Both the position numbers and the translations under genes were made by a program. DNA of 41,654 nucleotides from positions 1 to 41,654 of the forward strand of contig NW_012237372.1 of assembly GCF_000981445.1 (NCBI RefSeq), given 5' to 3'. Under the pieces are notes generated by a model. That model ran no database searches, was not told the DNA's origin, and was given only the letters and a program-made list of their open reading frames with translations. This DNA is from Babesia bigemina (taxonomy: Eukaryota). Below are positions 1 to 36,392 of this stretch, one piece after another; the first letter of the stretch is position 1, and every line of letters starts with the position of its first letter.

Positions 1-50
1 GTGGGTAAAGGGGCGATGTAGAGTGGGTTAGGGAGCGATGTAGAGTGGAT
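1..50. repeat. Partial 22-bp G-rich minisatellite (truncated by window edge)
   Basis: Two units of CGATGTAGAGTGG(G/A)T(T/A)A(A/G)GG(G/A)G, the same as the arrays at 5849, 16796, 27165 and 33478; suggests another ves-like gene lies left of the window. Confidence 0.9.
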
Positions 51-71
51 AATAATCACCACTTTGGTCAC

Positions 72-728
72 CATGTCATCGCTGCCGTGACCATGTCATC
101 GCTGCCGTAACCATGTCATCGCTGCCGTGACCATGTCATCGCTGCCGTGCCCATGACATCGCTGCCGTGACCATGTCATCGCTGCCGTGACCATGTCATC
201 GCTGCCTAACCATGTCATCGCTGCCGTGACCATGTCATCGCTGTTGTGACCATGTCATCGCTACTGTGTCCATGTCATCGCTGCCGTGACCATGTCATCG
301 CTGCCGTGACCATGTCATCGCTGCCGTGACCATGTCCTCGCTGCCGTGACCATAACAATGTCATCGCTGCCGTAACCATGTCATCGCTGCCGTGACCATA
401 ACAATGTCATCGCTGCCGTGACCATGTCATCGCTGCCGTGACCATAACAATGTCATCGCTGCCGTAACCATGTCATCGCTGCTTAACCATTCCATCGCTG
501 CCGTGACCATGTCATCGCTGCCGTGACCATGTAATCGCTGCCGTAACCATGTCATCGCTGCCGTGACCATGTCACCGCTGCCGTAACCATGTCATCGCTG
601 CCGTAACCATGTCATCGCTGCCGTAACCATGTCATCGCTGCCGTAACCATGTCATCGCTGCCGTAACCATGTCCTCGCTGCCGTGACCATGACATCGCTG
701 CCGTAACCATGACATCGCTGCCGTGACC
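72..728. repeat. 20-bp minisatellite (CATGTCATCGCTGCCGT(G/A)AC), ~32 units
   Basis: Direct tandem repeat; a few units carry a 6-bp insertion (ccataacaatg). Confidence 0.97.
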
Positions 729-734
729 GCTAAC

Positions 735-957
735 TTGGTCAGGTGCTTGGTCATGGCATTGGTCAGGTGCTTGGTCACCGCTTTGGTCAACACGTTGGTC
801 AGCACTTTGGTCAGCACGTTGGTCACCACCTTGGTCAGCACGTTGGTCACCACTTTGGTCATGGCATTGGTCAACACATTGGTCAACACGTTGGTCAGCA
901 CTTTGGTCAACACTTTGGTCAGCACCTTGGTCAGCACTTTGGGCAGCACTTTAGTTA
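735..957. repeat. 12-bp minisatellite (TTGGTCA(G/A/C)CAC(T/G/A/C)), ~18 units
   Basis: Direct tandem repeat; source of the spurious VLTK/LVST/GQHF ORFs. Confidence 0.95.
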
Positions 958-1076
958 ACTACTACACAATCACATACAACGATTAGTGAGTGATGCAACA
1001 GATTAAAGTACAATTCATGAGTTAGGTGAGTAGGTGATATGCTAGGTGAGTGTAGGTAGTAAACACGTGAGTACGA
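958..1076 (-). promoter_or_regulatory. Conserved 3' flank / putative 3'UTR of NRVFYLQP-type genes
   Basis: Closely similar ~115-bp blocks at 27973-28087 and 36393-36511, each directly after the stop codon; contains clustered ACTCAC (sense) motifs. Confidence 0.6.
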
Positions 1077-4000
1077 TTATGGCTGCAGGTAAAACACTCT
1101 GTTAAGCTTGTTAACACGTGCAGCGGCGAGTAGTGATTGAGCAGCAATCCTATGACTCGAGGGACTATGTAGATGCGATTTGATGTGGAGGAGGTCTAGG
1201 CGGATGACCATGATGTGGATGAGGTACAGGAAAGAGAGGAGCCAGAGGGTAAGGACAAGGTAGGAGAAGGGTTGTCTGATAGTCCAAATGAAGTTGTCAC
1301 ATTCCTCAAATAATTTGGTGAAATATTGCGATTTTAGTACGTTTTGTAATTGCGCGTACAGGTTACGGCAGTATCTTCTTTGATCACCGGATAACAATTT
1401 TTTGACGTCGCCAAATGTGAAGCCGTAACTGTATAAAATGCTCATCACACCGCGGCATCCCACCAGCGATCGGCACTTGCAGCCGTAGCCATCGCCGTGC
1501 TTGCCCGGTTTACAAGAGCTGCCGTCGACGCATGTGCTGCATCCCCAATCTTGGCAAGAGATACTGCTGAATGAATCAAACAATGATTTAAGATAGTCAT
1601 ACAGTGTCCATGGTAGATAAACGGCCCATGAGAGATACACGTTAGTATGTTTAGCTGCGATGTAGTAGTACGTGTCGCAGAATAGGGTCTGCAGGTACGG
1701 CCCGCAGTGGACGTTATCTTCGATTGCAAGCATACATGACTGACTCATCGCGAGGCTCGACATATCAGCCGATTTTGGAATATGATTACTTGCATTATGA
1801 CTACTCTGACTGTTGCCATAAGCGGCACTAAGCGCACCTGTGAGTTTGGTTGTCTCCTTATATAAGTCAATGGACAACTGTTTGGTTGTGATTTCAAAAG
1901 CCGTTTTGATAGCATCGGTACCAGAATCCGTATTACTATTCAGCACATTAACTAATGAGACGGCAAAATTGAAGTGCTCGGGTAGCGATGAGGGCGGTTT
2001 AGTCATTAAGCAAAATAGCGTTGTTATATATGAGTTTGCGAAGAAATTTTCTAGCATCTCACATAATGCTCTACCCGTCTTCTCACTACCAGAAAACCCC
2101 CTGAAACCGAGAGGTGTCAAACACGGCATACCCTTCTTAGCTTTCGGGCACGTTGAACATACAGCTCTACACCCTATGGAACTGACATGATGAGGCAAGT
2201 GGCCAGGTAAGCAGTCGTTGAGGTAGCTCATTAAAGGGGAGTTTGGTTGGCAATTTGGTTGGTATTTGCCTGGCACGTGGCAAACACCCTACTTGGCTCG
2301 TGCTTTGTTCTTTTGGGTGCTCGTTACATTGCCATTTAGCTGATGGGACGTTCTGGCCGTATACACAATCGGCCCACCCGTAGTGTTGAGCACCGATGCT
2401 ACATTGCCTATACAAAAATCTCAGTGGCGGGTACAACCTGCTTAGGACATCCAGTAGCATCTGGAGGCAATCTTCGCCCTTGGATGGGTAGTGAAAGTTA
2501 AGCGAATTGGCGCAGTAGTCGACGGCGTACATGGTATGAGCATTTCCGTAACCGACGATTCTGGTCAGAACGTCATATGACTTTGAGCACAAACGCATCA
2601 CCGCTTTCCGTGTATCATCATATAACATGTTGTTTGGATGCGCTGGGAGGAAGTCATCTCTCATGTCTGTAACAGTTATCTCAAACCCGTCGAGATCTGC
2701 TGCGACCTGTTTATTTGGATCCTCAAATAATTCACTCACAGCATCACGCAGAACTTCTTCATAAACGGAACTGCATGGAAGCCCTGACAGCCAACAAAGT
2801 ATTTCGAACACGTTACATGGCCGCTTCTTGGCAGCAAACGTTGAGACGTGACAGACTTGATAGTAATCGTTAAGGTGCTCGTTCAGCATCTGAAGCGCAA
2901 GTTTGGTGTCTTTATCTGTGTGGTATATATGCTTGTAATCGTCGCTAATCAGAAGCTTTTTGATTTTTGTGGCAGCAACGTTCTTATCTAACTCCCCCTT
3001 TTGCTTCTCTTTGACGGAGACATCATAGCCTTGATGGTAAAAGAACATTCCAACATCTGTGTTTTTGTTAATTTTCTGAAATCTCTGTTCCGTATAACAA
3101 TACTTCTTCAGAACTTTAAAGGCAATGTGCAAGTTAGAGACAACAGTCAAACAGACCTTAGACAGCTTTTCACCGTAAGGCGTTAATTTTTCGTTTTGAC
3201 CAGAATTTTTACCAGCATCATTTTTAACAAGTGGATTTAACGTAAAATTGATTAATGTTCCATCATCATACCCGTTCACATACACCCGCTCCATCTGCTC
3301 GACAAACCCCTGCAGCCCCGCTCTGACCGCATCGAGCAGCTCCGGGTGCCGGGGGTTGGCGAAGTGGGAGGGGTGGAGGAGGTGGAGGGAGGAGGAGAGG
3401 GATTCATGCTTTTTGGTGTATGTATGATCAAATATATATGTTCTAGAAGGTGTAGAGTCATTTTTGAGGTGGTCGAGTAATTCGTTGAATTTAGTGTTGA
3501 CGGCGGTGAGGTGCTGGAGGTTGGTAGCATTGATGCCTTGAAGGGCCTGCGGTTCCGACGCAATTTCGGATTTGATTTGGTAATCAGTATACTTATGAAT
3601 ATTAGTGAAATAGGCGTGGAATGCTGTGGAGAGTTCTTTGAATTTCCCAAGATGCTGTGCGCCCTTAGGTGACGGAGCAAGGGGCTGGGCAAGATTGGAA
3701 ATTTCGTTAAACAATTCAGTGGGCAAATTATCATCAAAATATGAAGAATGGTCTGGTTTTACAGTGTACTTATTACCTCCCATCACTCTCATCAACCCCT
3801 TGAACCCGATGCGCAGATCCCTCTCAATCTCCCCCGGCAACCCCTGCAACTCCTGGCTGACCTTGTCCGCGAACGCGGTGAGCATTAGTTTAGTATGACG
3901 AACGTAGCGTTTCCTGAGGTCTGTGATGATTATGTTTTTCGAGTCGGTGATTGCCGAGTTTATATACGACTGCAGTCCGCTGACGCATTTGCTACGCAGT

Positions 4001-5820
4001 CCATCGATTGCGGAAATATATGACTCCACTTCCTGTAACCACGTATCTAATTTGCTTTCCACTTCTTCGGCAACATCGAGTATCCTATTAATGCTTGTAG
4101 TTAGCGATCTCATGTTGGTGGGTAAGGTTTTAGTGATGCTTGTAAGCGTTGAGTCTGGTACATTCGTATTGGTCGATTGAGTTTTAAGATTCGAAATGTC
4201 GTTTTTGATGCCTTGAACTAACTGCCCTATACGCTGTAAATCGCCTTTTGAATTTTCCATGAATTTCTCAATATTGATTTTCATAGATCCGTACTTTTTA
4301 AGTACCGTATTACCTCTCTCGGCTGCCTTCGCATCAAGCGTCTTAATTACGCTTTCTAAAACATTATTTATGAATTCAGAACAAAGGCCAGCATATGCTT
4401 CACCATCACTTAAACTTGTAACGTATTCGTTCATCAATTTTGTGATTTGTATACGCAAGCTGTCTAGATCTGTCTCTATCGCTTTAGGAAATATTTCTAC
4501 TGCATTATTTAGATCTTCGGCAAATCCTTCAAGCACTGGTTGGTTTTTCATACGGATACCGATGGACATCAAATCATTCAGCGGCTGAACCACCTTTTTT
4601 ATTTCCGCAAGCGCCGTATGAATCTTAGGATAACGATCTTCGAATATCAAAATATCGTCGCCGACGTAACTGCGGGATGCTACTAATTTCTCTTTATTGT
4701 TCTTAACCCAGTCGCTCAATGGTTGGTAAATGTCTTTTTTCATGGTACTTTGAAATGCGTTCATTTTGTTTCTAATATCATTTAATAGAGCCTCCACTTT
4801 TGTCCTAGTCTCATCATCGACTTTTCTATGTATGTCATTGCACCTCTCAACAACTTTCTTAATGCTGTATTCCAAATCGTGACTCTGATTCTGACACGAA
4901 AATTGCAGCACGTCTAATTCACGTTTCATGGCATTTATAGCATTATTAACATTATTACGAGTGTCGAAATTCAAATCAGCAATCTCAGTCTGCAAAGTCT
5001 TAGTAGTCTCGGTGAATCCGACAGTCGCCTTAATTGAATCCTTTAACTTCCGGTTCACGTCATCAACCGCTTGCTTAGCGACATCGGCGTCCCCCGTCCT
5101 CAGGATCATAGTAGTACCTGCAACAGCATTATCATTTAATATAGCACTTACCTGAGTTTTAAGCTCTTTCATCTCCCCTTCAAGCTTTTTTATTGGTTGT
5201 TTAACTTTCTCATTCCCCTCCTGCACTTCCCTGTTATACCCCGCGATGCGAGCAGGCAACTCGGTGAAAAGCCTTTTAAAGCCCTCGTGACCTGAGCAAA
5301 GATGTTTGTTAATAAGCGTTAAAATGTTGTTAATTAATATATTTTTACCCACACTGTAAGGCTGTTTCTCGCTGACATCCCTAAGCACCTGATACAAAAA
5401 TCCCATCACTGCATCACAAAGCCTATCCAAGTCAGAGTACACAATCCCCTGGCCAGTGTAGCCTTTTGACTCAGAGTTGAAGCCGAGGAAAGTTTCGAGG
5501 CCAGAACAAAGATTCTCTAAAAGATTTTGGCAATTGTCATTTTTAGTCAATCCTTCAAGACTCTCTTTAAGTTTTTCAAGCTGAGACAACTTGGAGTCAA
5601 TGTCCTGCAAGGCTTTCTTAGTAGCATCGTCAGTAAGAGAATGGTCAGTATCAGCAAGTTATTATAATGGTTTAAAGAGGTCATAGCGTTAATAAGACGA
5701 ACTGATTCGAGATATTTGGAGATAGGGTGAACATGATGGCACATGGCAGTGGCAAGAGGTGGAAGAAGGGAAGTGAAGGGTGACGAGGCACAAGTTATTA
5801 GGATGGTTTAAAGAGGTCAT
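1077..5820 (-). pseudogene. ves: ves-like gene E (variant erythrocyte surface antigen superfamily), frameshifted and 5'-interrupted
   Basis: ORF 2167-5610 (GIVYSDLDRLCDAVMGFL motif) and ORF 1077-2276 (Cys-rich domain, TM, ...RVNKLNRVFYLQP) together form one gene homologous to A-D. Frameshift near 2255-2280. The ORF-track start at 5610 is TTG. The leader ATG at 5820 is in frame but is followed by in-frame TAA stops (5689-5691 and ~5660). Confidence 0.85.
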
Positions 5821-5850
5821 AGCGGTATTATTGCGAGGTAATTCGAGGGA
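5650..5850 (-). other. Conserved leader element (MTSLNHPNNLCLVTL-encoding), here in two diverged copies
   Basis: 5790-5850 matches 16737-16797, 27107-27167 and 33420-33480; 5654-5712 is a second, diverged copy (caagttattataatggtttaaagaggtcatagcg). Confidence 0.8.
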
Positions 5851-6697
5851 TGTGGAGTGGATTAAGGAGCGATGTAGAGTGGGTTAAGGAGCGATGTAGA
5901 GTGGATAAAGGAGCGATGTAGAGTGGGTAAAGAAGCGATGTAGAGTGGGTTAGGGAGCGATGTAGAGTGGGTTAAGGGGCGATGTAGAGTGGATAAAGGG
6001 GCGATGTAAGGTGGATTAGGGAGCGATGTAGAGTGGATAGAGGAGCGATGTGGAGTGGGTTAAGGGGCGATGTAGGGTGGGTAAAGGGGCGATGTAGAGT
6101 GGATTAAGGGGCGATGTGGAGTGGGTTAAGGGGCGATGTAGAGTGGACAAAGGAGCGATGTGGAGTGGGTTAGGGAGCGATGTGGAGTGGGTTAAGGGGC
6201 GATGTGGAGTGGGTTAGGGAGCGATGTAGAGTGGACAAAGGGGCGATGTAGAGTGGTTAAAGGAGCGATGTGGAGTGGGTTAGGGAGCGATGTAGAGTGG
6301 GTAAAGGGGCGATGTGGAGTGGACTAAGGGGCGATGTGGAGTGGGTTAGGGAGCGATGTAGAGTGGGTTAAGGAGCGATGTAGAGTGGGTTAAGGGGCGA
6401 TGTAGAGTGGATAGAGGAGCGATGTAGAGTGGATAAGGGAGCGATGTAGAGTGGGTAAGGGGCGATGTAGAGTGGGTTAAGGGGCGATGTAGAGTGGATA
6501 AAGGGGCGATGTAGAGTGGATAGAGGAGCGATGTAGAGTGGGTTAGGGAGCGATGTAGAGTGGGTAAAGGGGCGATGTAGAGTGGGTAAAGGGGCGATGT
6601 AGAGTGGGTAAAGGCGCGATGCAGAGTGGGTTAAGGAGCGATGTGGAGTGGGTAAAGGGGCGATGTGGAGTGGATAAAGGGGCGATGTAGAGTGGGT
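5849..6697. repeat. 22-bp G-rich minisatellite, ~38 units
   Basis: Tandem CGATGTAGAGTGGGTTAGGGAG / CGATGTAGAGTGGATAAAGGGG variants. Confidence 0.97.
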
Positions 6698-6719
6698 AAT
6701 AATCACCACTTATGTCACC

Positions 6720-7152
6720 ACTGTCATCGCTGCCGTAACCATGTCATCGCTGCCGTAACCATGTCATCGCTGCTGTAACCATGTCATCGCTGCCGTGACC
6801 ATGTCATCGCTGCCGTGACCATGTCATCGCTGCCGTAACCATCAACTGTCATCGCTGCCGTAACCATCAACTGTCATCGCTGCCGTGACCATGACATCGC
6901 TGCCGTAACCATGTCATCGCTGCCGTGACCATGTCATCGCTGCCGTGACCATGTCATCGCTGCCGTGACCATGTCATCGCTGCCGTGACCATGTGATCGC
7001 TGCCGTGACCATGACATCGCTGCCGTGACCATGTGATCGCTGCCGTGACCATGTGATCGCTGCCGTGACCGTGTCATCGCTGCCGTAACCATGTCATCGC
7101 TGCAGTGACCATGTCATCGCTGCCGTGACCATGTCATCGCTGCCGTGACCAT
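6720..7152. repeat. 20-bp minisatellite, ~21 units
   Basis: Tandem CATGTCATCGCTGCCGTGAC. Confidence 0.96.
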
Positions 7153-7156
7153 ACAC

Positions 7157-7490
7157 TTGGTCAGGGGTTAGGTCACCACATTGGTCACCACTTTGGTCAG
7201 CACCTTGGTCAGCACCTTGGTCAGCACCTTGGTCAGCACATTGGTCAGCACATTGGTCAACACATTGGTCAGCACATTGGTCACCACTCTGGTCATGGCA
7301 TTGGTCACCACTTTGGGCAGCACATTGGTCAACACTTTGGTCATGGCATTGGTCAACACATTGGTCAGCACTCTGGTCAACACTTTGGGCAGCATCTTGG
7401 TCAGGTGCTTGGTCACCACGTTAGTCATGGCATTGGTCACCACGTTGGTCACCACGTTGGTCAGCACATCGGCCAGATGCTTGGTCACCT
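7157..7490. repeat. 12-bp minisatellite, ~27 units
   Basis: Tandem TTGGTCAGCACA variants. Confidence 0.95.
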
Positions 7491-24400: not shown

Positions 24401-27136
24401 AAAGGTGGTGAGGATTCCCAGGTTATCGGTAACCTGGGTTTGTATGTCACTGAGAGCGTTGGTGATGTCTTGCTTGATGGTCTCGAGGCCCTTGGTGGAT
24501 GCTTGATCAGGCCAGGTTTCATTATTGGCAAAGCCGGCGTCATGCAGATCTTCCAATCTGTTGATCACGTCCTTCTTGTCACTGTTGAGCAAGATGTTAT
24601 TTCGAAGGTTGGTGAGCTCAATCCCAATGTTGCCGATGCCACCGGTGATTGTGATGCTTCTGTTCAGACTGTCTTGATGCAATTGCCGAATAGCAGTAGT
24701 GATCGTTTGGAGGCCAGACACTTTACCAGTTCCGTGTGATCTCCAATTCGACGTATCACCAAGACCGTTGCTTAGCAAAACCATGTAATCTTTGATACCA
24801 TTTTTGTCACCGCTGTAACCGCTAGGAGTATTGCCGTTGTTCTTGCTCTTATCAATGAACCAAGCGGCCTCCTTCAGCTCACTTATAATCGTAGTTACAT
24901 GCATTTTAACAGCTTTCTCAGCATCATCAATAGCGCCATTCGTGAGTCTTTGGGCAGTTTGTTCTTTATCTCTGAAAGCCTCCAGTTTCTCGAAATCTTT
25001 AAGCGCGCCATTAACGTTGCCAATCATCTTTTGCAGCAGCGTCTTATCTTGTATGTTTGTATGATAGTTATGCATAACTGTCATGAATTCATCACTTTCG
25101 CGTGTCATTGTTGTAGGATCCTTGAACGGTTCACTTGATGCTTTCTTGAACTCTTCAATAATGTTTGTAAGCGTTTTCTTAAGGCCTGAAACTTCAGACA
25201 AAGTGTCGTAATTATATTGCCCACCTAGCTTGCTTTTTAATTGTAACAACAGCATTTCAATATGTGTCGCAATTGAATTTTGTTTCAAGCTGACGTCGAG
25301 GCCCTCAAAAATTTTTTTCCATGCATCCGTTAATTGTACACCATTTTGCAAATCTTTAAGACCTAATGCGCTATCGTATTCTAGCATGTTAGATTTTTCC
25401 GTTGCTCCCAATACTGCGTTTATAATTTTTTTGACATGCGTTTCAATTCCCTTCTCGACTTGACCTTTCAACAACTCCAAATCTTTGACAATGTGTTTTT
25501 TTAGTCCATTTACCTGCTCCTTAATATTTCTGACTAAGGACCCAAGACCTGTATGCGCTTTATTGTAAGCGTTCAATAACGCTTTGCCTTTTCTTTCTAA
25601 TTCCATAGCTTCCTGCCTTATCTTTGTTCCATTCATACGATTAGTTACATACGTGTCATCCAATTTTTTAAATAATTCTCTACATTTTGCATCCGCCTTG
25701 CCAACTACATCCGTGGCCTCCGTATTCCAATGCTCCAACTCTCCAACATACTGCTGCAGCTTATTATTAGCGGCGCCAACTGCTTCTCCTGCCTTCCGTA
25801 TTTCCTCGAGGTTGTAACCAAGTTCATGTTTTAGTGCATCATGTTGTCCATGATCCAACGCTTCGTGCACCTCTTTCGCCTTCTTAACAGCTTCACTGAT
25901 AACACTCTGCGCCGCTGTCTTCCAACCTTCCAGCTGTTTTGCTTTCTCCGTTCCCTTTGTCACCCAATCCGCAATATTATCTTTCACGTTTTTGCCAGCC
26001 CTGTGAAGGTCCTCAACATCCCGACCAAGTGACTCGGCCGCCGTTTTTATATTCATGGTATACGTACTTGCAGTCCCATCCATGTGTTTTAATATCTTAT
26101 TAATCCTTTCCAACGCCGCAGTAGCGAACTCCTCGGCCTCCTTTATCCACGCTCCCAGCTCACTGATATACTTCTCTAAATTGCTACTAATCTCCCTCAG
26201 CTTCTTCAAAATTTTCTGCACCCTCACCATTAAACTTTTAACAAGCTTATCTATATCGTCACCCACCTGCTTGTTGATGCAGCTCTTGAGATTGCGAAAA
26301 CTTGTCTTAATCTTCTCCGTCGTCTCCTTCAACTCAGCGTCTTTCCGCTTATGCACGCTGGCCAGCCGCTGGCTCTCGTACTCAACAAGCTTACGAACAT
26401 GCAACACTTTGTCACGCAACTTATCATTAAGGTCATAAATGTTTTTTTTCATCTTAGTGTTGTTATTTGCCTTGGGGTCCAGAAATTCCGCGCACCTCTT
26501 GCTCCTCTCTGTGGCCTCCTTCAGCCGGTCCCCGCAGGACCTTACGGCGTCGGCCAGCTGTGGATCCAGACGATGACTCTCAGCCTGAATATTATTAATG
26601 CTAGTAATCAACTCACCTCCATTTTTCTTGGTGTAGTCGAGCAGTAATTGAAGGGGCTCAATCACTGCTTCATTAGAAGACTTTACATTACCATTATACC
26701 CCCGCACCCCTGCGACCACCCTTCCAATCGCATCATTAAAACCTTTTTTACCAAGGTGTTTATTGGTCTCAAGTATCTTAATTACAGGTGTAATTGTCTC
26801 TTTATGCTGCCCTAAATGCTTGTGGATGTTGCTGAGAACACCACTCAAAAATCCCATCACCCCGTCACACAGCCTGTCCAAGTCAGAGTACACAATGCCA
26901 TGGCCGTCGTAGCCTTTGGAAGATGGATTGAAGCCGAGGAATTTCTCGAGGCCGGTGCAAAGGTTATTAAGGATGTTAGTAGGGTTGTTATTTGAGGTAT
27001 TTTTAAGGTTTTAAAATTTGTCAAATTTCATGTCAAGCTCCCTAGGCGGCACATGGTAAGGGCAGTGGCAAGCGGTGGAAGAGGGGAAGAGAAGGGTGAC
27101 AAGGCACAAGTTATTAGGATGGTTTATAGAGGTCAT
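21413..27136 (-). pseudogene. ves: ves-like gene C, AKISYLQP tail, with a single in-frame stop near the 5' end
   Basis: ATG 27136 reads MTSINHPNNLCLVTLLFPSSTACHCPYHVPPRELDMKFDKF, then TAA (27011-27013), then NLKNTSNNNPTNILNNLCTGLEKFLGFNPSSKGYDGHGIVYSDLDRLCDGVMGFL in the same frame as the 1826-codon ORF (whose listed start, 26893, is GTG). Confidence 0.85.
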
Positions 27137-27164
27137 AACGGTATTATGGCGAGGTGATTCGAGG

Positions 27165-27441
27165 GATGTAGAGTGGATTAGGGAGCGATGTAGAGTGGGT
27201 AAAGGGGCGATGTGGAGTGGGTTAGGGAGCGATGTGGAGTGGGTAAAGGGGCGATGTAGAGTGGGTTAAGGGGCGATGTAGAGTGGATAAAGGAGCGATG
27301 TAGAGTGGATAGAGGAGCGATGTAGAGTGGGTTAAGGGGCGATGTAGAGTGGGTTAAGGGGCGATGTAGAGTGGGTAAAGGGGCGATGTAGAGTGGGTTA
27401 GGGAGCGATGTAGAGTGGGTTAAGGGGCGATGTAGAGTGGA
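27165..27441. repeat. 22-bp G-rich minisatellite, ~12 units
   Basis: Direct tandem repeat. Confidence 0.96.
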
Positions 27442-27464
27442 TGATCATCACCACTTAAGTCACC

Positions 27465-27527
27465 ACTGTCATCGCTGCCGTGCCCATGTCATCGCTGCCG
27501 TGACCATGTCATCGCTGCCGTGACCAT
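27465..27527. repeat. 20-bp minisatellite, ~3 units
   Basis: Three TGTCATCGCTGCCGTG units. Confidence 0.9.
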
Positions 27528-27530
27528 CAA

Positions 27531-27972
27531 CTTGGTCAGCACCTTGGTCAGCACATTGGTCACCACTTTGGTCACCACGTTTGTCAGCACATTGGTCAGC
27601 ACTTTGGTCACCACGTTGGTCACCACTCAGGTCAGAGCATTGGTCAGGTGGTTGGTCACCACGTTGGTCAACACTTTGGGCAGCATCTTGGTCAACACGT
27701 TGGTCAACACATAGGTCAGCACTTTGGTCAGCACTTTGGTCAGCACGTTGGTCAACACTTTGGGCAGCATCTTGGTCAACACGTTGGTCAACACTTTGGT
27801 CACCACGTTGGTCACCACGTTGGTCAGCACCTTGGTCATGGCATTGGTCAACACGTTGGTCAGCACATTGGTCTTGGCATTGGTCAGCACCTTGGTCAAC
27901 ACATTGGTCAACACGTTGGTCAACACCTTGGTCAACACTTTGGGCAGCACGTTGGTCAACACTTTAGTTAAC
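27531..27972. repeat. 12-bp minisatellite, ~36 units
   Basis: Direct tandem repeat. Confidence 0.95.
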
Positions 27973-28087: not shown

Positions 28088-31000
28088 TTATGGTTGCAGA
28101 TAAAACACCCTGTTAAGCTTGTTAACACGTCCAGCAGCGAGCAGTGATTGGGCAGCTATGCGATGTGATGAGGGACTATGCAAATGCGATTTGATGTGGA
28201 GCAGGTCTAGGCGGATGACCATGATGTGGAGGAGGTACAACAGAGAGAGGAGCCAGAGGGCTAATACAAGATACGAGAATGGCGTCCTGATATCCCACAA
28301 GAATTGATCGATTTGTTTGCGTAATTCAATAAGCACAGATTTCTCTCCTAGCATCAATTTCAACGCTTCACAGAAATCTTTGCACGTCCTCTGCGTAGCT
28401 GTATTATTTCCGATGCCACTGAGACCCAACGCGTTGCCGAATGTGAATCCGTATTTATACAGATTAGGGTGCGTGTTGCGGCAGTGGACGATTGACTTGC
28501 AATCTTTGTTGTGATTCTTGTCGTCAAGCTTCTTTGCCTCATTGTCTTCACTCTTTGACTCTATTGCTGCATATGCCTTCTTTACCTCACATCCATTAGT
28601 ACAGCATTTGTCATAGCATCTGCTGCCAGGCTTCTTACACGTTCCGCAGCAGTCGTCGTACAGTTTCTTCAACAGGTCGTAAAATGTTTCCGTGATGTAC
28701 ACGATCCAAGACAGGTGATTGGTCTTATGCTTAGATGAGTAATAGCTGTAGGTGTTCAATGTCAGTGGCTGCACGTAAAGACCACATGGCTTATGGGAGA
28801 CCGAATGACAGTTTGTTATACTCAGCAGATTGCCATCGGAATGGGCTGTTTTGTGCCCACTGTTACTGCACAATGCACTTGGAGCAAGAGATTCATACCC
28901 ATTGCCGAAATAAGCTTCAGTGACTGCATCGGTGTATGCCTGTTGAGTATGCAACAGCTCAGATTTGACACCATAATAATTGCCGGTCCAATTCGCGAGA
29001 TAACTATAATAATACGCGTATACATCACCCAGCGATTGCGGCGGTTTCTGCATAATACACGTGAAGTAACCACAAAGCTTCGTAAGTGGACTATCCTGCT
29101 TTCCACAAAATTCATCAAGCACCTTCCAAAGATGTTCACCGTTTTTAGTATGCGATGCCATAACGCTGATTTCATTGAATCCCATCGGTGTCTTACACGG
29201 TATGCCGCGATGGTTGGACACCGTGCATTCCAATTTACAACCTGGTTTCTTAAATGAATGCGGTAAGAAGCCAGGCAAACCATCTTCTAAGTATGACTGT
29301 AATGGGGATTTTACACCGCACTTAGGGTGTTGGTCACAGTTTTGGTTGACCTTTTGGTTACACTTTTGGTCAGCGCATTGCTTTGAGTTGCACTTCCAAT
29401 CTGACCCACCGATTGCATTGCCATACAAACAACCCCGCCACCCGGAACAAATTTCGTCGTTGCAGCATTGGCAGTATACGAAGTAGAGCTGCTGGTAAAT
29501 GCGATGCAGTATGTCTACTAGCATATCAATGCATTGACCGTAGCGAGAGGGGTACGAGAACCCTTGCGAATTAGTGTTGAAGTCCACCGCGTATATTCCG
29601 TCCGCGTGTCCATGGCCAAGTATAGATGTAAGTACGTCGTGAGCCTGATGGCATACTTCCGTCAGCATGCCAGATATTCCTCCAACGGTGATGTCTTCCG
29701 GGTGAGCAGGCAGTGTATTGGCGTCGTCGGTTTCAAGCAAGATGTCGTCCCCCTCACTGTTAGCAGCGTTGTTCTCCTCCTTCTCAAACAGCTCACTGAA
29801 TCCGTTAAATGACAACGGTTGGTAGACGGGATTGTATGGAAAACCGGACAACCATAGAAGCATTTGGTATACGCTCGACGGTTGCTTGGTGGCGAACATG
29901 GTACCGTAGTGGCATACTTCGTAGTATTCGTGTAGGTGGGTGAACAATCTACTTAAGATGCCCCCCTGTTCTCTGAAGTTATCAGCGCATGCCTTCAGCG
30001 AAGTAAAATCGTTGGGATACTTATTAAATTCTTTGTGTTTACGGAAGCCTTTGCTTAATTTCATCGAGACATTCCAACCGGTATCGTCCTTAGTTATGAG
30101 ATTCTTAACGTCGTAACCACATTGTGTTAAGAAATCTCTCAACGCCGCGTTGTTATCTTCACTCTGCATTCGGCACTCTCTGAAGGTATGACCACCCTCG
30201 TAATACAGCTGATGAAGCTGATCGAACAGCATCGTCGCGCAAGTCAAAAACACCTTCGCGCAATTCTTCCCATTTGTCGTCAGAATCATATTTTGATCGT
30301 AGTCCTGCACTTTTTGAGCGCTTTCCTTATTAGGGTCTTTTATCAACCACTGACCGATTGCCGGCGAGCCCTCGTACCTACTGACGTACGCCCTCCCAAG
30401 TTCACCAATCAATTTGCGAAGTCCACCTTTCATGGCATCAGGCAACTCCGGATGATTATGACCAGCGAACGTGGATGGCTGCAGTGCGCTAAGTGTATTA
30501 GTAAAATCAGCGAGATTACGGGAGAATGTATGATCAAAGTGATTCGAGGAGGAGAGGTCGTCGAGCGAAAGGCCGAGCATGGTTTTCACGTTAGCAATTT
30601 TGGTGGATGCAACAGTGTCTTTCTTCGTTTGTTGTGCCGTTGAGATTTTAACTTGATCTTCGACGTATTGGAGCAACTCTTCTAAATACATTCTGACTTG
30701 GGTGGTGGCTGTTCGTATTTCCGTTTGTTTTTGTAGCGTGTCGAGATAGGTATCATTCGCCTTCATTTTGCCCATCATTCCCTTCAATCCGCTTTCCAGA
30801 TCTTGCTGAATAATTTCACCAATTTCTGTATATTTCTGAGTGACCAATCCTTTGAGCGCCTCCAACTCTTTCTCTTTGGTGTCCGCAAACATTCTCAGGG
30901 CCTCCTGTTTAATGCTTCTCTTGGCGGTGGCACTATCGCTGGTAACTTTTGAGGTGATTGTGGATTGGCAGAGATTAGTGGCTTTCTCTAGCGTGCCTTC

Positions 31001-33415
31001 TTTTAATGTTCTAACTTGTGCATCCAGGGTAGAGGTCACTTGTTGGTTTAGTTCGTTGGTCTTTTCATCAATCTGATTCTTCACACCGACCAGCTTTTTG
31101 TCGTGTTTATCGTTTTTATCTTTCTTGTCTTCTAGGATAGCGCTAATGTTTCTGAGCTCCATATTAACTGAGTCGATAACATAAGCAAGTCCTTGCTTTA
31201 TTTTTTCGGCAGGCATTGACACATCGTTGTTAAGCTTAGTTTGAATTTTTTCGATCAATGGTTTCTCAACTAATTTTTTAAGTTCTTCGCCTAGTGCTTT
31301 AACACCGTCGATAGCAGCTGTCAACTTTCCCATATTTATCTCTGATTTGAATCGTTGAATTTCTATTTCCGCGCCTTTCGCAAGCGACTGTAACTCAGTT
31401 AGGGCGGCTTCTACCCCCCACTTGAGATACGGATTATAGCCTGATTCGGATACATCGGTCATCTGTAGATCGTAGCCATCTTGCAAATCACTTTGAATTT
31501 TCCCTACTACATCTGCAACTTTATGTATTACTTGCTCCGCGTAGTTGCTAAGATACTTATGAACGTTTTGTAAATGGCCATCTACAGTGGATTGAGATCC
31601 AGGCTTTGGATTGGCTTTAATAGCAGTTAGTGCTGCTTTAATATTTTTTTGAACGATTGAAAGGAATACCTTGAGAATAGCATCATTATCGGCAGCGGTA
31701 AAACGGCCCTTGAATTTTTTTGCGTGGTTGTTCCCGCTAACATACGAATACAAATACTGTTTCACCGGCTCTTCGTCAACAATCGCCGTAACCGCATCAT
31801 TGATTGATTGTTTGAATGTCTCCTCGAAATTAGTTGCGTACTCTCCTACAGAAGTAACGATGTCATTTAAGTGACCTTGATTACCTTCCTTATCTGCAAT
31901 CCCATCGGTAAGCCCAGTAAGCGCCAACTGTATTTCCGCCCACAAACTGCCAAGATCATCATCTCGGAGCGTCGCAGCATTAGTGACAATATTTTGCGCC
32001 AAACTGGCAGCCCCCAAGGCCGTATTTGGAGAGGTATCTTTTTCATCAAATTTTCCATTAATAACATCAACGGACTTCTTAATGTTTTGTCGAACAGTGT
32101 GCAACTTCCAGACTGTGTCAGTCAAAAGCTTAACCTTCCTCTCAAGTTCTTCTTTTACTAGCATACGAAGACCGTCAATACCCTTAGTCACCGTTTCCTT
32201 AAGTACCCTGACCTGCTCTGTAACTGTGCTACTAATCTGACTTTCAAGCGTTGTAAGGTCTCTATCGACACTACTGGCTACCGCCACCAAGTCGCTATAG
32301 TCAAGTTTCGTGGATTCTACAAATGTATTAACACTATTAAAAATTACGCAGACGTTGGTTTCTAACTTATTTTTTAGGTTAGGATCTAAATCTCTAAGTG
32401 AATCTAATGAAGATTTCGGTTGTGTCACTAAGCTATTGACAGAGTCAGCCCAGTCTGCTAACTTATCTGAGACGGCATCATATTCTTGACTACGCAGTGT
32501 TTTGATATATTCCGCAGATTGATATATGTCACGAATTGTTGTATCTAATGGCCCAGTCACTGTTTTTGTTCTCGTTTTCATTTCACCTTCATACCCCTCC
32601 AACCACTCCCTCACCGCGCCGACAGCATCCACAAGCCCATCACGCCCGGAGCCAATTTGTTTAGTTAAGGTGTCAAGTACACTTTTAAGCTTTTTATCCT
32701 CTCCACTGATGTAATTATCATAAGTTGTCACTTCATTTTCGTTTTTCACCCCCTCAAGCACACCACTCAAAAATCCCATCACCCCGTCACACAGCCTGTC
32801 AAGGTCAGAGTAGACAATCCCACTGCCATCGTAGCCTTTGGAGTCAGGGTTGAAGCCGAGGAAGGTTTCGAGGCCGGAACATAAATGCGTTAAAATATTA
32901 TTATTATTAGTTTTATCAAGTTCTTCAGCAAATTTCTTAAGCTTCTCAACAATTTCTCTCTGCTGCCTCACTTCCTCCAATCCCTTCTGCCTCTCCTCCT
33001 CAGGGAGGTAATGGGTCTTAGCACAGTCATTTTTAGCATCTTCGGCTTTTTTGATTTGAGATTTTAGGGCAGCAATTTCTTTCTTTTTAGAGTCTTCAGA
33101 TTGCGTAGATTCAGACTGTTTAGTTTTAAGTTCATTTTTAGCTTTTTCAATTTCAGCATCCTGCTTCTTACAACAGGGCTGGACAGAGGGGTCAGAAGAG
33201 GAGGAGTCAGAAGGTTTATCAGTAGGTTTTCCACGGCAAAGAAGCTTGGATTCGCGTTCATCAAGGGACTTATTAGCGTTACCTATAGCCTCCTCAATCA
33301 ACTTATTCAAAGCTTGAGACAACTGGTCAAGACCTTCATCACCTTGACCATTCCCATACCTAAGCTGGATCAACCAGTCGATGGACTCAGTCAGAAGGGA
33401 AGCGAAGGGTGACAA
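28088..33415 (-). CDS. ves: ves-like gene B, ~1775-codon open frame with NRVFYLQP tail and no in-frame 5' ATG (possibly a silent cassette)
   Basis: Same motifs as D with an identical 5' end. Start 33415 is TTG, in-frame TAA at 33437-33439, leader ATG 33449 out of frame. Confidence 0.88.
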   Translation of the reverse strand: MSPFASLLTESIDWLIQLRYGNGQGDEGLDQLSQALNKLIEEAIGNANKSLDERESKLLCRGKPTDKPSDSSSSDPSVQPCCKKQDAEIEKAKNELKTKQSESTQSEDSKKKEIAALKSQIKKAEDAKNDCAKTHYLPEEERQKGLEEVRQQREIVEKLKKFAEELDKTNNNNILTHLCSGLETFLGFNPDSKGYDGSGIVYSDLDRLCDGVMGFLSGVLEGVKNENEVTTYDNYISGEDKKLKSVLDTLTKQIGSGRDGLVDAVGAVREWLEGYEGEMKTRTKTVTGPLDTTIRDIYQSAEYIKTLRSQEYDAVSDKLADWADSVNSLVTQPKSSLDSLRDLDPNLKNKLETNVCVIFNSVNTFVESTKLDYSDLVAVASSVDRDLTTLESQISSTVTEQVRVLKETVTKGIDGLRMLVKEELERKVKLLTDTVWKLHTVRQNIKKSVDVINGKFDEKDTSPNTALGAASLAQNIVTNAATLRDDDLGSLWAEIQLALTGLTDGIADKEGNQGHLNDIVTSVGEYATNFEETFKQSINDAVTAIVDEEPVKQYLYSYVSGNNHAKKFKGRFTAADNDAILKVFLSIVQKNIKAALTAIKANPKPGSQSTVDGHLQNVHKYLSNYAEQVIHKVADVVGKIQSDLQDGYDLQMTDVSESGYNPYLKWGVEAALTELQSLAKGAEIEIQRFKSEINMGKLTAAIDGVKALGEELKKLVEKPLIEKIQTKLNNDVSMPAEKIKQGLAYVIDSVNMELRNISAILEDKKDKNDKHDKKLVGVKNQIDEKTNELNQQVTSTLDAQVRTLKEGTLEKATNLCQSTITSKVTSDSATAKRSIKQEALRMFADTKEKELEALKGLVTQKYTEIGEIIQQDLESGLKGMMGKMKANDTYLDTLQKQTEIRTATTQVRMYLEELLQYVEDQVKISTAQQTKKDTVASTKIANVKTMLGLSLDDLSSSNHFDHTFSRNLADFTNTLSALQPSTFAGHNHPELPDAMKGGLRKLIGELGRAYVSRYEGSPAIGQWLIKDPNKESAQKVQDYDQNMILTTNGKNCAKVFLTCATMLFDQLHQLYYEGGHTFRECRMQSEDNNAALRDFLTQCGYDVKNLITKDDTGWNVSMKLSKGFRKHKEFNKYPNDFTSLKACADNFREQGGILSRLFTHLHEYYEVCHYGTMFATKQPSSVYQMLLWLSGFPYNPVYQPLSFNGFSELFEKEENNAANSEGDDILLETDDANTLPAHPEDITVGGISGMLTEVCHQAHDVLTSILGHGHADGIYAVDFNTNSQGFSYPSRYGQCIDMLVDILHRIYQQLYFVYCQCCNDEICSGWRGCLYGNAIGGSDWKCNSKQCADQKCNQKVNQNCDQHPKCGVKSPLQSYLEDGLPGFLPHSFKKPGCKLECTVSNHRGIPCKTPMGFNEISVMASHTKNGEHLWKVLDEFCGKQDSPLTKLCGYFTCIMQKPPQSLGDVYAYYYSYLANWTGNYYGVKSELLHTQQAYTDAVTEAYFGNGYESLAPSALCSNSGHKTAHSDGNLLSITNCHSVSHKPCGLYVQPLTLNTYSYYSSKHKTNHLSWIVYITETFYDLLKKLYDDCCGTCKKPGSRCYDKCCTNGCEVKKAYAAIESKSEDNEAKKLDDKNHNKDCKSIVHCRNTHPNLYKYGFTFGNALGLSGIGNNTATQRTCKDFCEALKLMLGEKSVLIELRKQIDQFLWDIRTPFSYLVLALWLLSLLYLLHIMVIRLDLLHIKSHLHSPSSHRIAAQSLLAAGRVNKLNRVFYLQP

Positions 33416-33477
33416 GGCACAAGTTATAAGGATGGTTTAAAGAGGACATAGCGGTAATATGGCGAAATAATTCGAAG

Positions 33478-36100
33478 GATGTAGAGTGGACAAAGGGGCG
33501 ATGTAGAGTGGGTAAAGGGGCGATGTAGAGTGGGTTAAGGAGCGATGTAGAGGAGGTGAAGGGGCGATGTAGAGTGGGTAAAGGAGCGATGTAAGGTGGG
33601 TAAAGGGGCGATGTAGAGTGGGTTAAGGGGCGATGTAGAGTGGATAAAGGGGCGATGTAGAGTGGATAAAGGGGCGATGTAGGGTGGATAAGGGGCGATG
33701 TGGAGTGGGTAAAGGGGCGATGAAGGGTGGGTAAAGGGGCGATGTAGAATGCGTTAAGGGGCGATGTAGAGTGGGTTAAGGGGCGATGTAGAGTGGGTAA
33801 AGGGGCGATGTAGAGTGGATAAGGGAGCGATGTAGAGTGGATTAGGGAGCGATGTAGAGTGGATAAAGGGGCGATGTAGAGTGGGTAAAGGGGCGATGTA
33901 GAGTGGGTTAAGGGGCGATGTAGAGTGGGTTAAGGGGCGATGTAGAGTGGGTTAAGGGGCGATGTAGAGTGGATAAAGGGGCGATGTAGAGTGGATAAAG
34001 GGGCGATGTAGAGTGGGTTAGGGAGCGATTAGAGGAGGTTAAGGGGCGATGTAGAGTGGGTTAAGGAGCGATGTGGAGTGGTTAAAGGGGCGATGTGGAG
34101 TGGATATAGGAGCGATGTAGAGTGGGTTAGGGAGCGATGTAGAGTGGATAAAGGGGCGATGTAGAGTGGGTTAGGGAGCGATGTAGAGTGGGTTAGGGAG
34201 CGATGTGGAGTGGATAAAGGAGCGATGTAGAGTGGATAAAGGAGCGATGTAGGGTGGGTTAAGGAGCGATGTGGAGTGGATTAGGGAGCGATGTAGAGTG
34301 GATAAAGGGGCGATGTAGAGTGGGTAAAGGGGCGATGTAGAGTGGGTAAAGGGGCGATGTAGAGTGGGTTAGGGAGCGATGTAGAGTGGATAAAGGGGCG
34401 ATGTGGAGTGGGTTAAGGAGCGATATAGAGTAAGTTAGGGAGCGATGTGGAGTGGGTTAAGGAGCGATATAGAGTGGATAAAGGGGCGATGTAGAGTGGG
34501 TTAGGGAGCGATGAAGAGTGGGTTAGGGAGCGATGTAGAGTGGATAAGGGGCGATGTAGAGTGGGTTAGGGAGCGATGTAGGGTGGGTTAAGGGGCGATG
34601 AAGGGTGGATAAAGGAGCGATGTAGAGTGGATAAAGGAGCGATGTAGAGTGGATAAAGGGGCGATGTAGAGTGGATAAAGGGGCGATGTAGAGTGGGTTA
34701 GGGAGCGATGTAGAGTGGATAAAGGGGCGATGTAGAGTGGATAAGGGGCGATGTAGAGTGGGTTAAGGGGCGATGTGGAGTGGATAAAGGGGCGATGTGG
34801 AGTGGGTTAGGGAGCGATGTGGAGTGGGTTAAGGGGCGATGTAGAGTGGGTAAAAGGGCGATGTAGGGTGGGTTAAGGGGCGATGTAGAGTGGGTTAAGG
34901 GGCGATGTAGAGTGGGTTAAGGGGCGATGTAGAGTGGATAAAGGGGCGATGTAGAGTGGATAAAGGGGCGATGTAGAGTGGGTTAGGGAGCGATGTAGAG
35001 TGGATAAAGGGGCGATGTAGAGTGGATAAAGGGGCGATGTAGAGTGGGTTAGGGAGCGATGTAGAGTGGATAAAGGGGCGATGTGCAGTGGGTTAAGGAG
35101 CGATGTAGAGTGGATTAGGGAGCGATGTAGAGTGGGTTAGGGAGCGATGTAGAGTGGGTTAAGGACCGATGTGGAGTGGGTTAAGGGGCGATGTAGAGTG
35201 GGTAAAGGGCGATGTAGGGTGGGTTAAGGGGCGATGTAGAGTGGGTTAAGGGGCGATGTAGAGTGGGTTAGGGGCGATGTAGAGTGGATAAAGGGGCGAT
35301 GTAGAGTGGATAAAGGGGCGATGTGAGTGCATAAAGGGAGCGATGTAGAGTGGGTTAGGGAGCGATGTAGAGTGGATTAGGGAGCGATGTGGAGTGGATA
35401 AAGGGGCGATGTAGAGTGGATTAGGGAGCGATGTAGAGTGGGTTAGGGAGCGATGTAGAGTGGATAAAGGAGCGATGTAGAGTGGGTAAAGGAGCGATGT
35501 GGAGTAGGTTAAGGGAGCGATGTAGAGTGGATAAAGGGGCGATGTGGAGTGGGTAAAGGGGCGATGTGGAGTGGATAAAGGGGCGATGTAGAGTGGGTTA
35601 AGGAGCGATGTAGAGTGGGTAAAGGAGCGATGTAGAGTGGATTAGGGAGCGATGTAGAGTGGATTAGGGAGCGATGTAGAGTGGATTAGGGGCGATGTAG
35701 AGTGGATAAGGGGCGATGTGGAGTGGGTTAGGGAGCGATGTAGAGTGGATTAGGAGCGATGTAGAGTGGGTAAAGGGGCGATGAAGAGTGGATAAAGGGG
35801 CGATGTAGAGTGGATATAGGGGCGATGTAAGGTGGGTTAAGGAGCGATGTAGAGTGGATAAAGGGGCGATGTAGAGTGGGTAAAGGAGCGATGTGGAGTG
35901 GTTCAGGGAGCGATGTAAAGTGGGTAAAGGGGCGATGTAAAGTGGATTAGGGAGCGATGTAGAGTGGGTTAAGGAGCGATTAGAGGAGGTTAAGGGGCGA
36001 TGTAGAGTGGATAAGGGAGCGATGTAGAGTGGGTAAAGGGGCCATGTAGAGTGGGTTAAGGGGCGATGTGGAGTGGGTTAAGGGGCGATGTAGAGTGGAT
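33478..36100. repeat. 22-bp G-rich minisatellite, ~119 units
   Basis: Longest array, about 2.6 kb. Confidence 0.97.
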
Positions 36101-36136
36101 TGTTAATCACCACTTAGGTCAGGTGCTTGGTCACCA

Positions 36137-36236
36137 CTGTCATCGCTGCCGTCACAATGTCATCGCTGCCGTGACCATGACATCGGTGCCGTGACCATGT
36201 CATCGCTGCCGTGACCATGTCATCGCTGCCGTGACC
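36137..36236. repeat. 20-bp minisatellite, ~5 units
   Basis: Direct tandem repeat. Confidence 0.92.
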
Positions 36237-36240
36237 TTAA

Positions 36241-36392
36241 CTTGGTCAGCACCTTGGTCATGGCATTGGTCAGCACTTTGGTCAGCACATTGGTCACCAC
36301 TTTGGTCAGCACCTTGGTCAGCACTTTGGTCAGCATTTTGGTCAACACGTTGGTCAACACTTTGGTCAGCATCTTGATCAGCACATTAGTTA
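36241..36392. repeat. 12-bp minisatellite, ~12 units
   Basis: Direct tandem repeat. Confidence 0.93.

What the first reader, a model, noticed from the sequence alone, without database searches (positions are those of the whole stretch)
1..36392. Invariant three-part minisatellite cassette (12-mer, 20-mer, 22-mer) in front of every ves-like gene
Seen: the cassette occurs five times (1-957, 5849-7490, 16796-18550, 27165-27972, 33478-36392) with the same order and orientation. The 22/20 junction is conserved (ATCACCACTT..GTCA..), and the same leader follows the 22-mer in all four complete cases. Copy numbers vary independently (22-mer ~12-119, 20-mer ~3-32, 12-mer ~12-36). Established: P. falciparum subtelomeric var genes sit next to ordered repeats (Rep20/TAREs, SPE2 arrays bound by the ApiAP2 protein PfSIP2), and trypanosome VSG cassettes are preceded by 70-bp repeats that guide conversion. 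Inference: a per-gene silencing/boundary element or upstream homology anchor for gene conversion.
Basis: partly seen in the sequence, partly recalled or inferred. Interest (0 to 1): 0.82.

Follow-up and report, generated by a model that had tools for sequence, protein, structure and literature searches.

The report
Repeat-tagged archive of Babesia antigen genes
In this contig of the cattle parasite Babesia bigemina, the same three-part block of short DNA repeats sits before each start-damaged copy of a variable surface-antigen gene, and it likely helps these spare copies swap pieces, much as repeats do in trypanosomes.

Summary
The cassette is real: five copies, same order and strand. In gene direction it reads 12-mer, 20-mer, 22-mer, an ~80-bp leader, then a Babesia bigemina ves1b gene (4 of 4 genes whose 5' end is in the window).

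None of those four genes encodes the family's intact N-terminus, and each leader ATG closes within 20-43 codons. Four of five bodies stay open for 1,713-1,946 codons. Among 69 annotated relatives, the intact start is in 17 of 17 chromosome-3-internal genes but 2 of 49 unplaced or right-end ones. The cassette therefore likely marks a terminal, 5'-decayed ves1b class, not every ves gene.

Two window genes with unrelated bodies share an 826-bp identical tract from the conserved YSDLDRLCD block into the 22-mer array, plus a 17-unit array block. The 22-mer is G4-prone.

Best reading (0.5): a recombination flank for shuffling archive copies, with the internal block as the likely route into intact genes. 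Silencing, neutral duplication and an alternative promoter remain open. There is no SPE2 motif. Not found in ten paper searches or in earlier scan notes.

The parts
1..952 (+). Cassette C1: end of 22-mer array (cut by contig end), junction at 55, 20-mer array 70-728, 12-mer array 734-952; its gene lies off the contig
953..1076 (-). Conserved 3' tail of ves1b gene G1, abutting the 12-mer array; 78-88% alike to the tails at 27963 and 36385 (with the gene ends)
1077..5658 (-). G1, ves1b-like gene in two overlapping frames (2167-5658 and 1077-2288), no intact N-terminus; preceded by two leader copies (ATGs at 5820 and 5684)
5764..5844 (-). Leader of G1
5845..7469 (+). Cassette C2: 22-mer 5845-6697, junction 6702, 20-mer 6717-7152, 12-mer 7171-7469
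10913..16753 (-). G3, ves1b-like open frame of 1,946 codons; first Met at codon 220; begins at the ESIDWLIQ motif without the KKLTDCPENLR segment
16085..16910 (.). 826-bp tract 100% identical to 32768-33593: from the YSDLDRLCDGVMGFL block through the N-terminal stub and leader into the first five 22-mer units
16710..16790 (-). Leader of G3 (ATG at 16766, frame closes after 20 codons)
16795..18523 (+). Cassette C3: 22-mer 16795-18125, junction 18128, 20-mer 18143-18326, 12-mer 18349-18523; 17-unit block from 17189 shared with C5 from 34355
21413..27010 (-). G4, ves1b-like open frame of 1,865 codons; identical to annotated P0117 over 1,075 residues but 83% alike in its first 100
27061..27160 (-). 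Leader of G4 (ATG at 27136, frame closes after 41 codons)
27165..27962 (+). Cassette C4: 22-mer 27165-27440, junction 27447, 20-mer 27462-27527, 12-mer 27532-27962
28088..33436 (-). G5, ves1b-like open frame of 1,782 codons; 5' part identical to G3, next ~180 bases 86% alike to G6, 3' end of the G1/G6 type
33393..33473 (-). Leader of G5, identical to that of G3; the leader/22-mer join is also seen in runs X11 and X12
33478..36384 (+). Cassette C5: 22-mer 33478-36098, junction 36106 with two 12-mer units, 20-mer 36133-36236, 12-mer 36242-36384
36512..41653 (-). G6, ves1b-like open frame of 1,713 codons running off the contig end at its 5' side

Best explanation
The 12-20-22 repeat cassette and its leader form the shared upstream flank of a tandem array of B. 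bigemina ves1b copies that lack the family's intact start, and this flank likely acts as a homology block through which these likely-silent archive copies exchange 5' modules. Shown: the anatomy, the missing N-terminal motif, the open bodies, an identical tract bounded by the 22-mer array and the conserved YSDLDRLCD block, and patchwork sharing between two 22-mer arrays. Inferred: the array is subtelomeric; the G-rich 22-mer strand forms G-quadruplexes that stall forks or start breaks; repair uses another cassette as template and resolves at the internal conserved block or at the conserved 3' end; archive bodies reach intact, expressible ves1b genes through the internal block and 3' end rather than through the repeats. 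The fixed order reflects descent from one composite flank kept alike by this exchange.
For: (1) 826 bp at 100% between G3 and G5, ending at the MGFL end of the conserved block and five units into the 22-mer, while the bodies are 7-24% alike over the following ~800 residues. (2) C3 and C5 arrays share 17 exact units, then a one-unit indel, then 4 more, separated from their shared start by 13 versus 35 unshared units; shuffled maximum 4; the other five array pairs share 2. (3) G4 equals P0117 for 1,075 residues but not at its 5' end. (4) Flanks are more alike than bodies: leaders 87.5-91%, the conserved block 70-92% in its two 60-bp bins, gene ends 82-98% within a type, and 18-45% just downstream of the block except G5/G6. 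(5) No TDCP or NLRE motif in six frames; 4 of 4 leader frames close in 20-43 codons. The leader frame changes like neutral DNA: mean BLOSUM of substitutions -0.88 against -0.71 expected, and 4 synonymous to 9 non-synonymous among three window leaders, against 37 to 25 in the conserved block (pairs are not independent). (6) Intact start in 17 of 17 chromosome-3-internal, 2 of 2 left-end, 0 of 7 right-end and 2 of 42 unplaced relatives; 22 of 69 begin with the leader's translation (Fisher 7e-14 for 17/17 against 2/49). (7) A co-dominant expressed VESA1b, BBBOND_0303890 = P0039, has the intact start. (8) 28 of 31 plus-strand G4 motifs lie in the 22-mer arrays, 5.5 per kb against 0.25 elsewhere; G4 enrichment near B. 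bovis ves loci is reported (PMC9047050, passages). (9) The leader/22-mer join recurs in X11 and X12, and one X1 contig joins the 22-mer straight to the gene stub without the leader.
Against: No genome was held, so the cassette's presence or absence at intact loci is inferred from annotated N-termini only, from 69 proteins drawn from the top 120 of 181 hits to a window gene plus two. Gene-finder starts are unreliable, and 26 of the 69 start internally. Exchange between intact chromosomal genes and the terminal class looks rare: 14 of 912 pairs share 25 or more identical residues and none shares 50, against 10 of 1,128 terminal pairs sharing 50; 0 of 114 intact/window pairs share 25. The identical tract is one event and could be an assembly join, though the internal one-unit indel argues for real descent. 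A leader-type gene (BBBOND_0212310) has peptides at about 8% of the dominant protein (6 peptides, 1 used; another strain), and two runs guessed to be RNA cross the 22-mer/leader join, so silence is not shown. Short GT-AG introns could formally join leader and body in all four genes. Mean G4Hunter is about 1.0, below the usual 1.2 cut-off for 63-79% of windows. Recombination in a repeat does not prove the repeat is kept for it.
Confidence: 0.5

Rival explanations
1. The cassette is mainly a per-gene heterochromatin seed or boundary. Arrayed short words recruit a DNA-binding protein (ApiAP2 or telomere-type) that keeps each copy silent, and recombination is a side effect.
For: The 22-mer carries TTAGGG 55 times on one strand. 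AGCGATG is shared in inverted orientation by the 22-mer and 20-mer (p about 0.012). B. gibsoni subtelomeric ves1 regions are H3K9me3-marked and AP2-P-bound (PMC13720069, passages).
Against: No SPE2-like site, no (G/A)TGGGG, and no TTTAGGG, the telomere unit of B. bovis and B. caballi. Genes without an intact start need less silencing. No chromatin data were available.
Confidence: 0.2
2. The cassette is a neutral passenger. One ancestral flank was copied with each gene duplication, slippage set the copy numbers, and exchange happens there only because any repeat recombines.
For: The units look related: the junction is 12-mer-like and the 20-mer holds an inverted 22-mer core. The leader evolves neutrally and can be lost. 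The leader's translation was seen in 0 of 52 B. ovata relatives. Shared descent alone explains the fixed order.
Against: Flanks stay about 90% alike beside bodies that barely align, which needs continual homogenisation. Four of five bodies are open over more than 1,700 codons. A second family has its own upstream minisatellite, so the layout recurs.
Confidence: 0.17
3. Cassette plus leader is an alternative promoter and short first exon for a stage-specific ves1b subclass that is expressed directly with a different N-terminus.
For: The ATG is always 25 bases from the 22-mer. 22 of 69 relatives are annotated from it, and 13 of those 22 reach the conserved block at residue 84. Formal introns exist. 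RNA-guessed contigs cross the leader. Low-level peptides map to terminal genes.
Against: The frame is closed in 4 of 4 window genes and changes neutrally. The leader joins the body at several depths (residue 15, ~27, ~128, ~142-230 of intact relatives). The candidate donors do not resemble the usual GTA/GTG-AG type (recalled, not tested).
Confidence: 0.1
4. The arrays are real, but the tandem layout and the identical tract are partly assembly chimeras joined through repeats.
For: The contig begins inside a 22-mer array and ends inside a gene. 826 bp is about one capillary read, and the annotated reference whose proteins are cited here was a capillary 8x Phrap assembly.
Against: The second shared block differs by a one-unit indel and is set among unshared units. 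The leader/22-mer join is in other runs. Many separate contigs encode the leader.
Confidence: 0.03

Closest known systems
Trypanosoma brucei 70-bp repeats upstream of VSG genes (PMC4858185, abstract and passages)
   Same: Oriented repeat directly upstream of archive antigen genes; marks the 5' limit of an exchanged tract; conserved 3' end as second anchor.
   Different: One AT-rich unit there, three ordered GC-rich units here. The 70-bp repeats also precede the expressed VSG and so guide activation; here the intact class seems to lack the leader and the repeat-linked copies have damaged starts. Unrelated origin.
Pneumocystis msg-I archive with CRJE and single UCS (PMC10622565, passages)
   Same: Subtelomeric tandem copies without their own start region, open bodies, flanks more alike than genes, a short conserved block near the 5' end as the likely crossover site (CRJE there, YSDLDRLCD block here).
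   Different: One expression site there; at least 17 intact ves1b loci here. No ordered minisatellite cassette appears in the passages read. Here decayed N-terminal stubs of several lengths remain.
P. falciparum SPE2/PfSIP2 arrays and TAREs at upsB var genes (PMC2829057, passages)
   Same: Ordered repeats upstream of subtelomeric variant-antigen genes in an apicomplexan.
   Different: No SPE2 motif here; var genes are intact and switch in situ; TAREs occur per chromosome end (recalled), the cassette per gene.
B. bovis ves1 LAT with segmental gene conversion (PMC6630957, PMC9047050, passages)
   Same: Same superfamily, mosaic genes, G4 motifs near ves loci.
   Different: Head-to-head alpha/beta pairs with a bidirectional promoter there; head-to-tail ves1b-only array here. 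No upstream repeat cassette in the passages read.
BbigVes1b family (PMC4066756; sections 8, 21-24, 26 and supplements)
   Same: The genes belong here: hits include BBBOND_0303890, labelled BbigVes1b. The paper reports almost no orthology of ves1b between strains (0-3.3%) and poor assembly of many loci.
   Different: The word 'repeat' occurs three times in the main text, none about flanking arrays. The sections read describe no 5'-decayed class; the discussion only says analogous flanking motifs 'may exist'.

Membership tests
BbigVes1b | Homology to annotated ves1b proteins | tested here: met
   181 hits; the 120 listed are all B. bigemina or B. ovata; P0039 = BBBOND_0303890 at E 1e-41, labelled BbigVes1b
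BbigVes1b | Conserved C-terminal transmembrane region of ves1 (absent in ves2) | tested here: met
   All five genes end in the W-L-rich segment plus H(I)(K/R)SHL...YLQP, as relatives do; hydrophobicity read by eye
BbigVes1b, intact class | Start Met followed by KKLTDCPENLRE(S/A)IDWLIQ | tested here: not met
   No TDCP or NLRE in six frames; only ESIDWL remains in G3 and G5; G6's 5' end is outside the window
70-bp-repeat-type conversion anchor | Oriented repeat upstream of archive genes | tested here: met
   4 of 4
70-bp-repeat-type conversion anchor | Exchange tract ends in the repeat | tested here: met
   One tract, 16085-16910 = 32768-33593; assembly join not excluded
70-bp-repeat-type conversion anchor | Same repeat upstream of the expressed locus | not testable with these tools
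   No genome held; protein proxy suggests intact loci lack the leader
70-bp-repeat-type conversion anchor | Deleting the repeat changes donor choice | not testable with these tools
   Needs genetics
SPE2/PfSIP2 array | Bipartite SPE2 motif in tandem | tested here: not met
   0 matches to a recalled consensus; 3 GTGCA half-sites in five cassettes
Babesia telomere repeat | (TTTAGGG)n | tested here: not met
   0 TTTAGGG in the cassettes; unit from PMC10463595; the B. bigemina unit itself was not found in print
G-quadruplex-forming minisatellite | Four G3+ runs with loops of 12 or fewer | tested here: inconclusive
   28 motifs in 5,133 bp of 22-mer; mean G4Hunter 0.97-1.08; folding not measured
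Known RNA family | Rfam match | tested here: not met
   0 at gathering score

The most novel reading that the evidence does not exclude
B. bigemina runs a two-tier ves1b system not described for Babesia. A few dozen intact, chromosome-internal genes act as expression-competent acceptors. A larger terminal archive of start-less copies, each tagged by an ordered G4-forming minisatellite cassette, drives module shuffling and feeds bodies into intact genes through the YSDLDRLCD block. A neighbouring small membrane-protein family carries its own, different repeat tag, so family-specific minisatellites would act as address labels that keep recombination within a family.
Probability: 0.3. Interest if true: 0.8.

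Novelty: new variant of a known kind. Interest (0 to 1): 0.6.

Why it matters
How Babesia focuses recombination on its ves genes and chooses donors is open (PMC9047050; PMC4066756 only suggests that flanking motifs may exist). This gives a named cis-element, a candidate internal crossover block and a split of ves1b into intact and 5'-decayed classes, all testable with one long-read assembly and strain comparison. It also indicates that many annotated ves1b N-termini (the MTSINH type) are probably gene-finder artefacts. It would be another independent arrival at the repeat-flanked archive design of trypanosomes and Pneumocystis.

Tried and rejected
No whole genome was held, so genome-wide mapping was impossible. 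Pfam gave no hit above a curated cut-off for 8 ORFs. Rfam: 0. A 33-base 20-mer pattern found 0 stretches in metagenome contigs; the viral and prokaryote collections were not scanned. A search with the leader region of P0012 returned only 3 candidates, all B. bigemina, too few to give the range. The profile-free representative search for the leader peptide met a full queue three times and was not run. Sequencing runs: no RNA holder on record; only 4 of 24 runs were laid, on one stretch. What follows ves 3' tails in other samples, and whether X11 and X12 are truly RNA, stayed open. An X1 loose end at 33071 resembles the 22-mer but is short (median 11 letters) and may be variant coding sequence, so it is not counted. 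A fold-back across the 22/20 junction was stronger than shuffles at C4 (-24.7 against -16.9 +/- 2.9) but not at C2: rejected as general. Leader versus arrays: no significant local alignment, so a foldback-element or inverted-end reading was dropped. 12-mer arrays share no run longer than 2 units. A C-terminal tree of 77 rows (proteins lacking the usual C-terminus left out; 11 of 52 B. ovata rows) mixes intact and leader types, with 9 changes for the intact label and an unsettled bootstrap: no clean clade. The proteome table rows seen carried only chromosome-placed locus tags, and two searches for unplaced tags found nothing, so unplaced genes could not be checked; I saw part 1 of 11 plus searched rows. 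The ESM Atlas gave no informative hit for the small protein. Earlier scan notes: one unrelated hit, otherwise nothing.
Full report
Observation. Tandem Repeats Finder and motif scans confirm five cassettes at the stated places, each 22-mer, 20-mer, 12-mer on the + strand, with no unit on the other strand. ATCACCACTT occurs five times, always at the 22/20 junction, and is followed by 12-mer-like sequence. All long ORFs run on the minus strand, so in gene direction each unit reads 12-mer, 20-mer, 22-mer, ~80-bp leader, gene. This holds for 4 of 4 genes whose 5' end lies in the window. C1 is cut by one contig end and G6 by the other. Leaders are 87.5-100% identical. Independence of copy numbers cannot be judged from four complete cassettes. 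Repeat arrays make up 28% of the window.

Identity. A search with residues 1-500 of G5 gave 181 hits; the 120 listed are B. bigemina and B. ovata proteins. P0001 matches G3 and sits on a 41,654-bp contig, so the window is a whole unplaced B. bigemina contig. Hit P0039 is BBBOND_0303890, labelled BbigVes1b and one of two co-dominant expressed VESA1b in PMC4066756. The genes are ves1b.

The genes behind the cassette have damaged starts. Intact relatives begin M..KKLTDCPENLRE(S/A)IDWLIQ. No TDCP or NLRE is encoded in any frame of the window, and the leader ATG frames close after 43, 20, 41 and 20 codons. The leader joins the body at several depths of the intact N-terminus. Its Met frame changes like neutral DNA, whereas the GIVYSDLDRLCDGVMGFL block shows more synonymous change (small, non-independent counts). 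G3-G6 stay open for 1,713-1,946 codons although they are mostly 10-45% alike per 100 residues; G1 is in two frames. Short GT-AG introns could formally join leader and body, so a spliced reading is not excluded.

Genome-wide proxy. No genome was held. I classed 69 B. bigemina relatives: 67 of the 120 listed (P0001 and 52 B. ovata rows set aside) plus two. Location was assigned from contig length and locus-tag number. The intact start was in 17 of 17 chromosome-3-internal, 2 of 2 left-end, 0 of 7 right-end and 2 of 42 unplaced proteins; 22 begin with the leader's translation and 26 at an internal Met. The leader was seen in 0 of 52 B. ovata rows. Five of 5 right-end relatives with coordinates in Table S1 lie on the reverse strand, so terminal ves1b genes would point away from the chromosome end, and the G-rich 22-mer strand toward it (inferred). 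The sample is biased toward the query, and starts are gene-finder calls, but the split is sharp (Fisher 7e-14). The cassette likely marks a terminal class, not every ves gene.

Traces of exchange. G3 and G5 share 826 identical bases, 16085-16910 and 32768-33593, from the end of the conserved block through stub and leader into the fifth 22-mer unit. Beyond the block G5 resembles G6, and at the 3' end G3 resembles G4. Coding the 22-mer units shows a further 17-unit block shared by C3 and C5, then a one-unit indel and 4 more units, against a shuffled maximum of 4; other array pairs share 2. G4 equals P0117 for 1,075 residues but not in its 5' part. In other samples, contigs of X11 and X12 join leader and 22-mer, and one X1 contig joins the 22-mer directly to the stub at 33399 (4 of 24 runs laid; RNA status is a guess). 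Against a strong donor role: exact blocks of 50 or more residues occur in 10 of 1,128 terminal pairs but 0 of 912 intact/terminal pairs (14 reach 25), and in 1 of 96 pairs with the two unplaced intact genes. A C-terminal tree mixes the classes but is poorly resolved. Peptides map at low level to terminal genes, from another strain and with 1-2 quantified peptides; this fits donation or direct expression.

Repeat properties. The 22-mer has GC skew 0.8, mean G4Hunter about 1.0, and holds 28 of the 31 plus-strand high-stringency G4 motifs. PMC9047050 (passages) reports G4 enrichment near B. bovis ves loci and proposes that it focuses conversion. The 22-mer carries TTAGGG but never TTTAGGG, the telomere unit of B. 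bovis and B. caballi. There is no SPE2-like site and no B. gibsoni AP2-P motif. The 20-mer contains an inverted 7-base core of the 22-mer (p about 0.012) and an inverted 6-base core of the 12-mer (p about 0.1), which suggests one composite origin.

Mechanism. Most likely (0.5) the cassette is the upstream homology block of a ves1b archive. A break or stalled fork in the G-rich array would be repaired from another cassette, moving the leader and stub up to the conserved block. The block and the conserved 3' end would let bodies move between copies and, more rarely, into intact genes. Because the repeat-linked starts are damaged, the repeats would not themselves guide activation, unlike the trypanosome 70-bp repeats (PMC4858185). 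The layout is closer to the Pneumocystis msg archive with its CRJE (PMC10622565). Rivals are a silencing or boundary element (0.2), a neutral passenger (0.17), an alternative promoter with a short first exon (0.1) and assembly chimerism (0.03).

Novelty. Ten full-text searches of the open library showed no description of this cassette or of a 5'-decayed ves1b class; subscription papers are not covered. Seen: PMC4066756 sections 8, 21, 22 (part 1 of 2), 23, 24 and 26, supplement 2 whole, supplement 3 part 1 of 11 plus searched rows; passages only of PMC10463595, PMC13720069, PMC6630957, PMC5660447, PMC4858185, PMC9047050, PMC10622565 and PMC2829057. Figures were not visible; Figure 3 of PMC4066756 (gene models, introns) may bear on the intron question. 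Verdict: real, apparently undescribed, a new variant of the repeat-flanked antigen archive; function inferred from sequence only. Interest 0.6.

Noticed in passing
window 9288-10767 and 19383-21253: A second ordered cassette: 24-mer array, ~500-bp spacer (87% identical between copies), 75-mer array, then a small Cys-rich protein gene with a C-terminal membrane segment (minus strand, Met at 9273 and 19370). It follows the two ves genes with the KITAQ...KISYLQP end. 15 of 36 annotated B. bigemina relatives carry translated 75-mer words, including chromosome-placed ones, so this family seems to have its own upstream minisatellite genome-wide.
   Followed up: partly
window 7482-8895 and 18536-18940: The small gene is followed by tandem 287-bp copies of its C-terminal membrane module (five units at 7482-8895, the last being the gene's own end). 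The second small gene ends in a different C-terminus, with a spare standard module behind it.
   Followed up: partly
P0121-P0156: All 36 relatives of the small protein are B. bigemina hypotheticals with a near-invariant C-terminus. Several locus tags lie one or two numbers from ves1b genes, including both dominant expressed ones (0303910 by 0303890; 0305330 by 0305310). No Pfam hit; not named in the paper sections read.
   Followed up: partly
window 1025, 10860, 21359, 28038, 36460: A short conserved word follows the stop codon of all five ves genes, in both 3' types, and resembles part of the 75-mer; a possible 3' processing or crossover element.
   Followed up: no
window 5655-5844: G1 has two leader copies in tandem; the chromosome-3 protein P0043 shows the same doubled leader.
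   Followed up: no
P0005 and P0068: Two unplaced genes have an intact MRHVPKKLTDCPENLRE start; P0068 has the terminal-class C-terminus, and P0005 shares 73 identical residues with leader-type P0021. They are candidates for terminal expression-competent loci.
   Followed up: partly
window 10249-10767: The 24-mer resembles two 12-mer-like halves with an internal TAGCAC/GTGCTA inverted pair (seen by eye).
   Followed up: no
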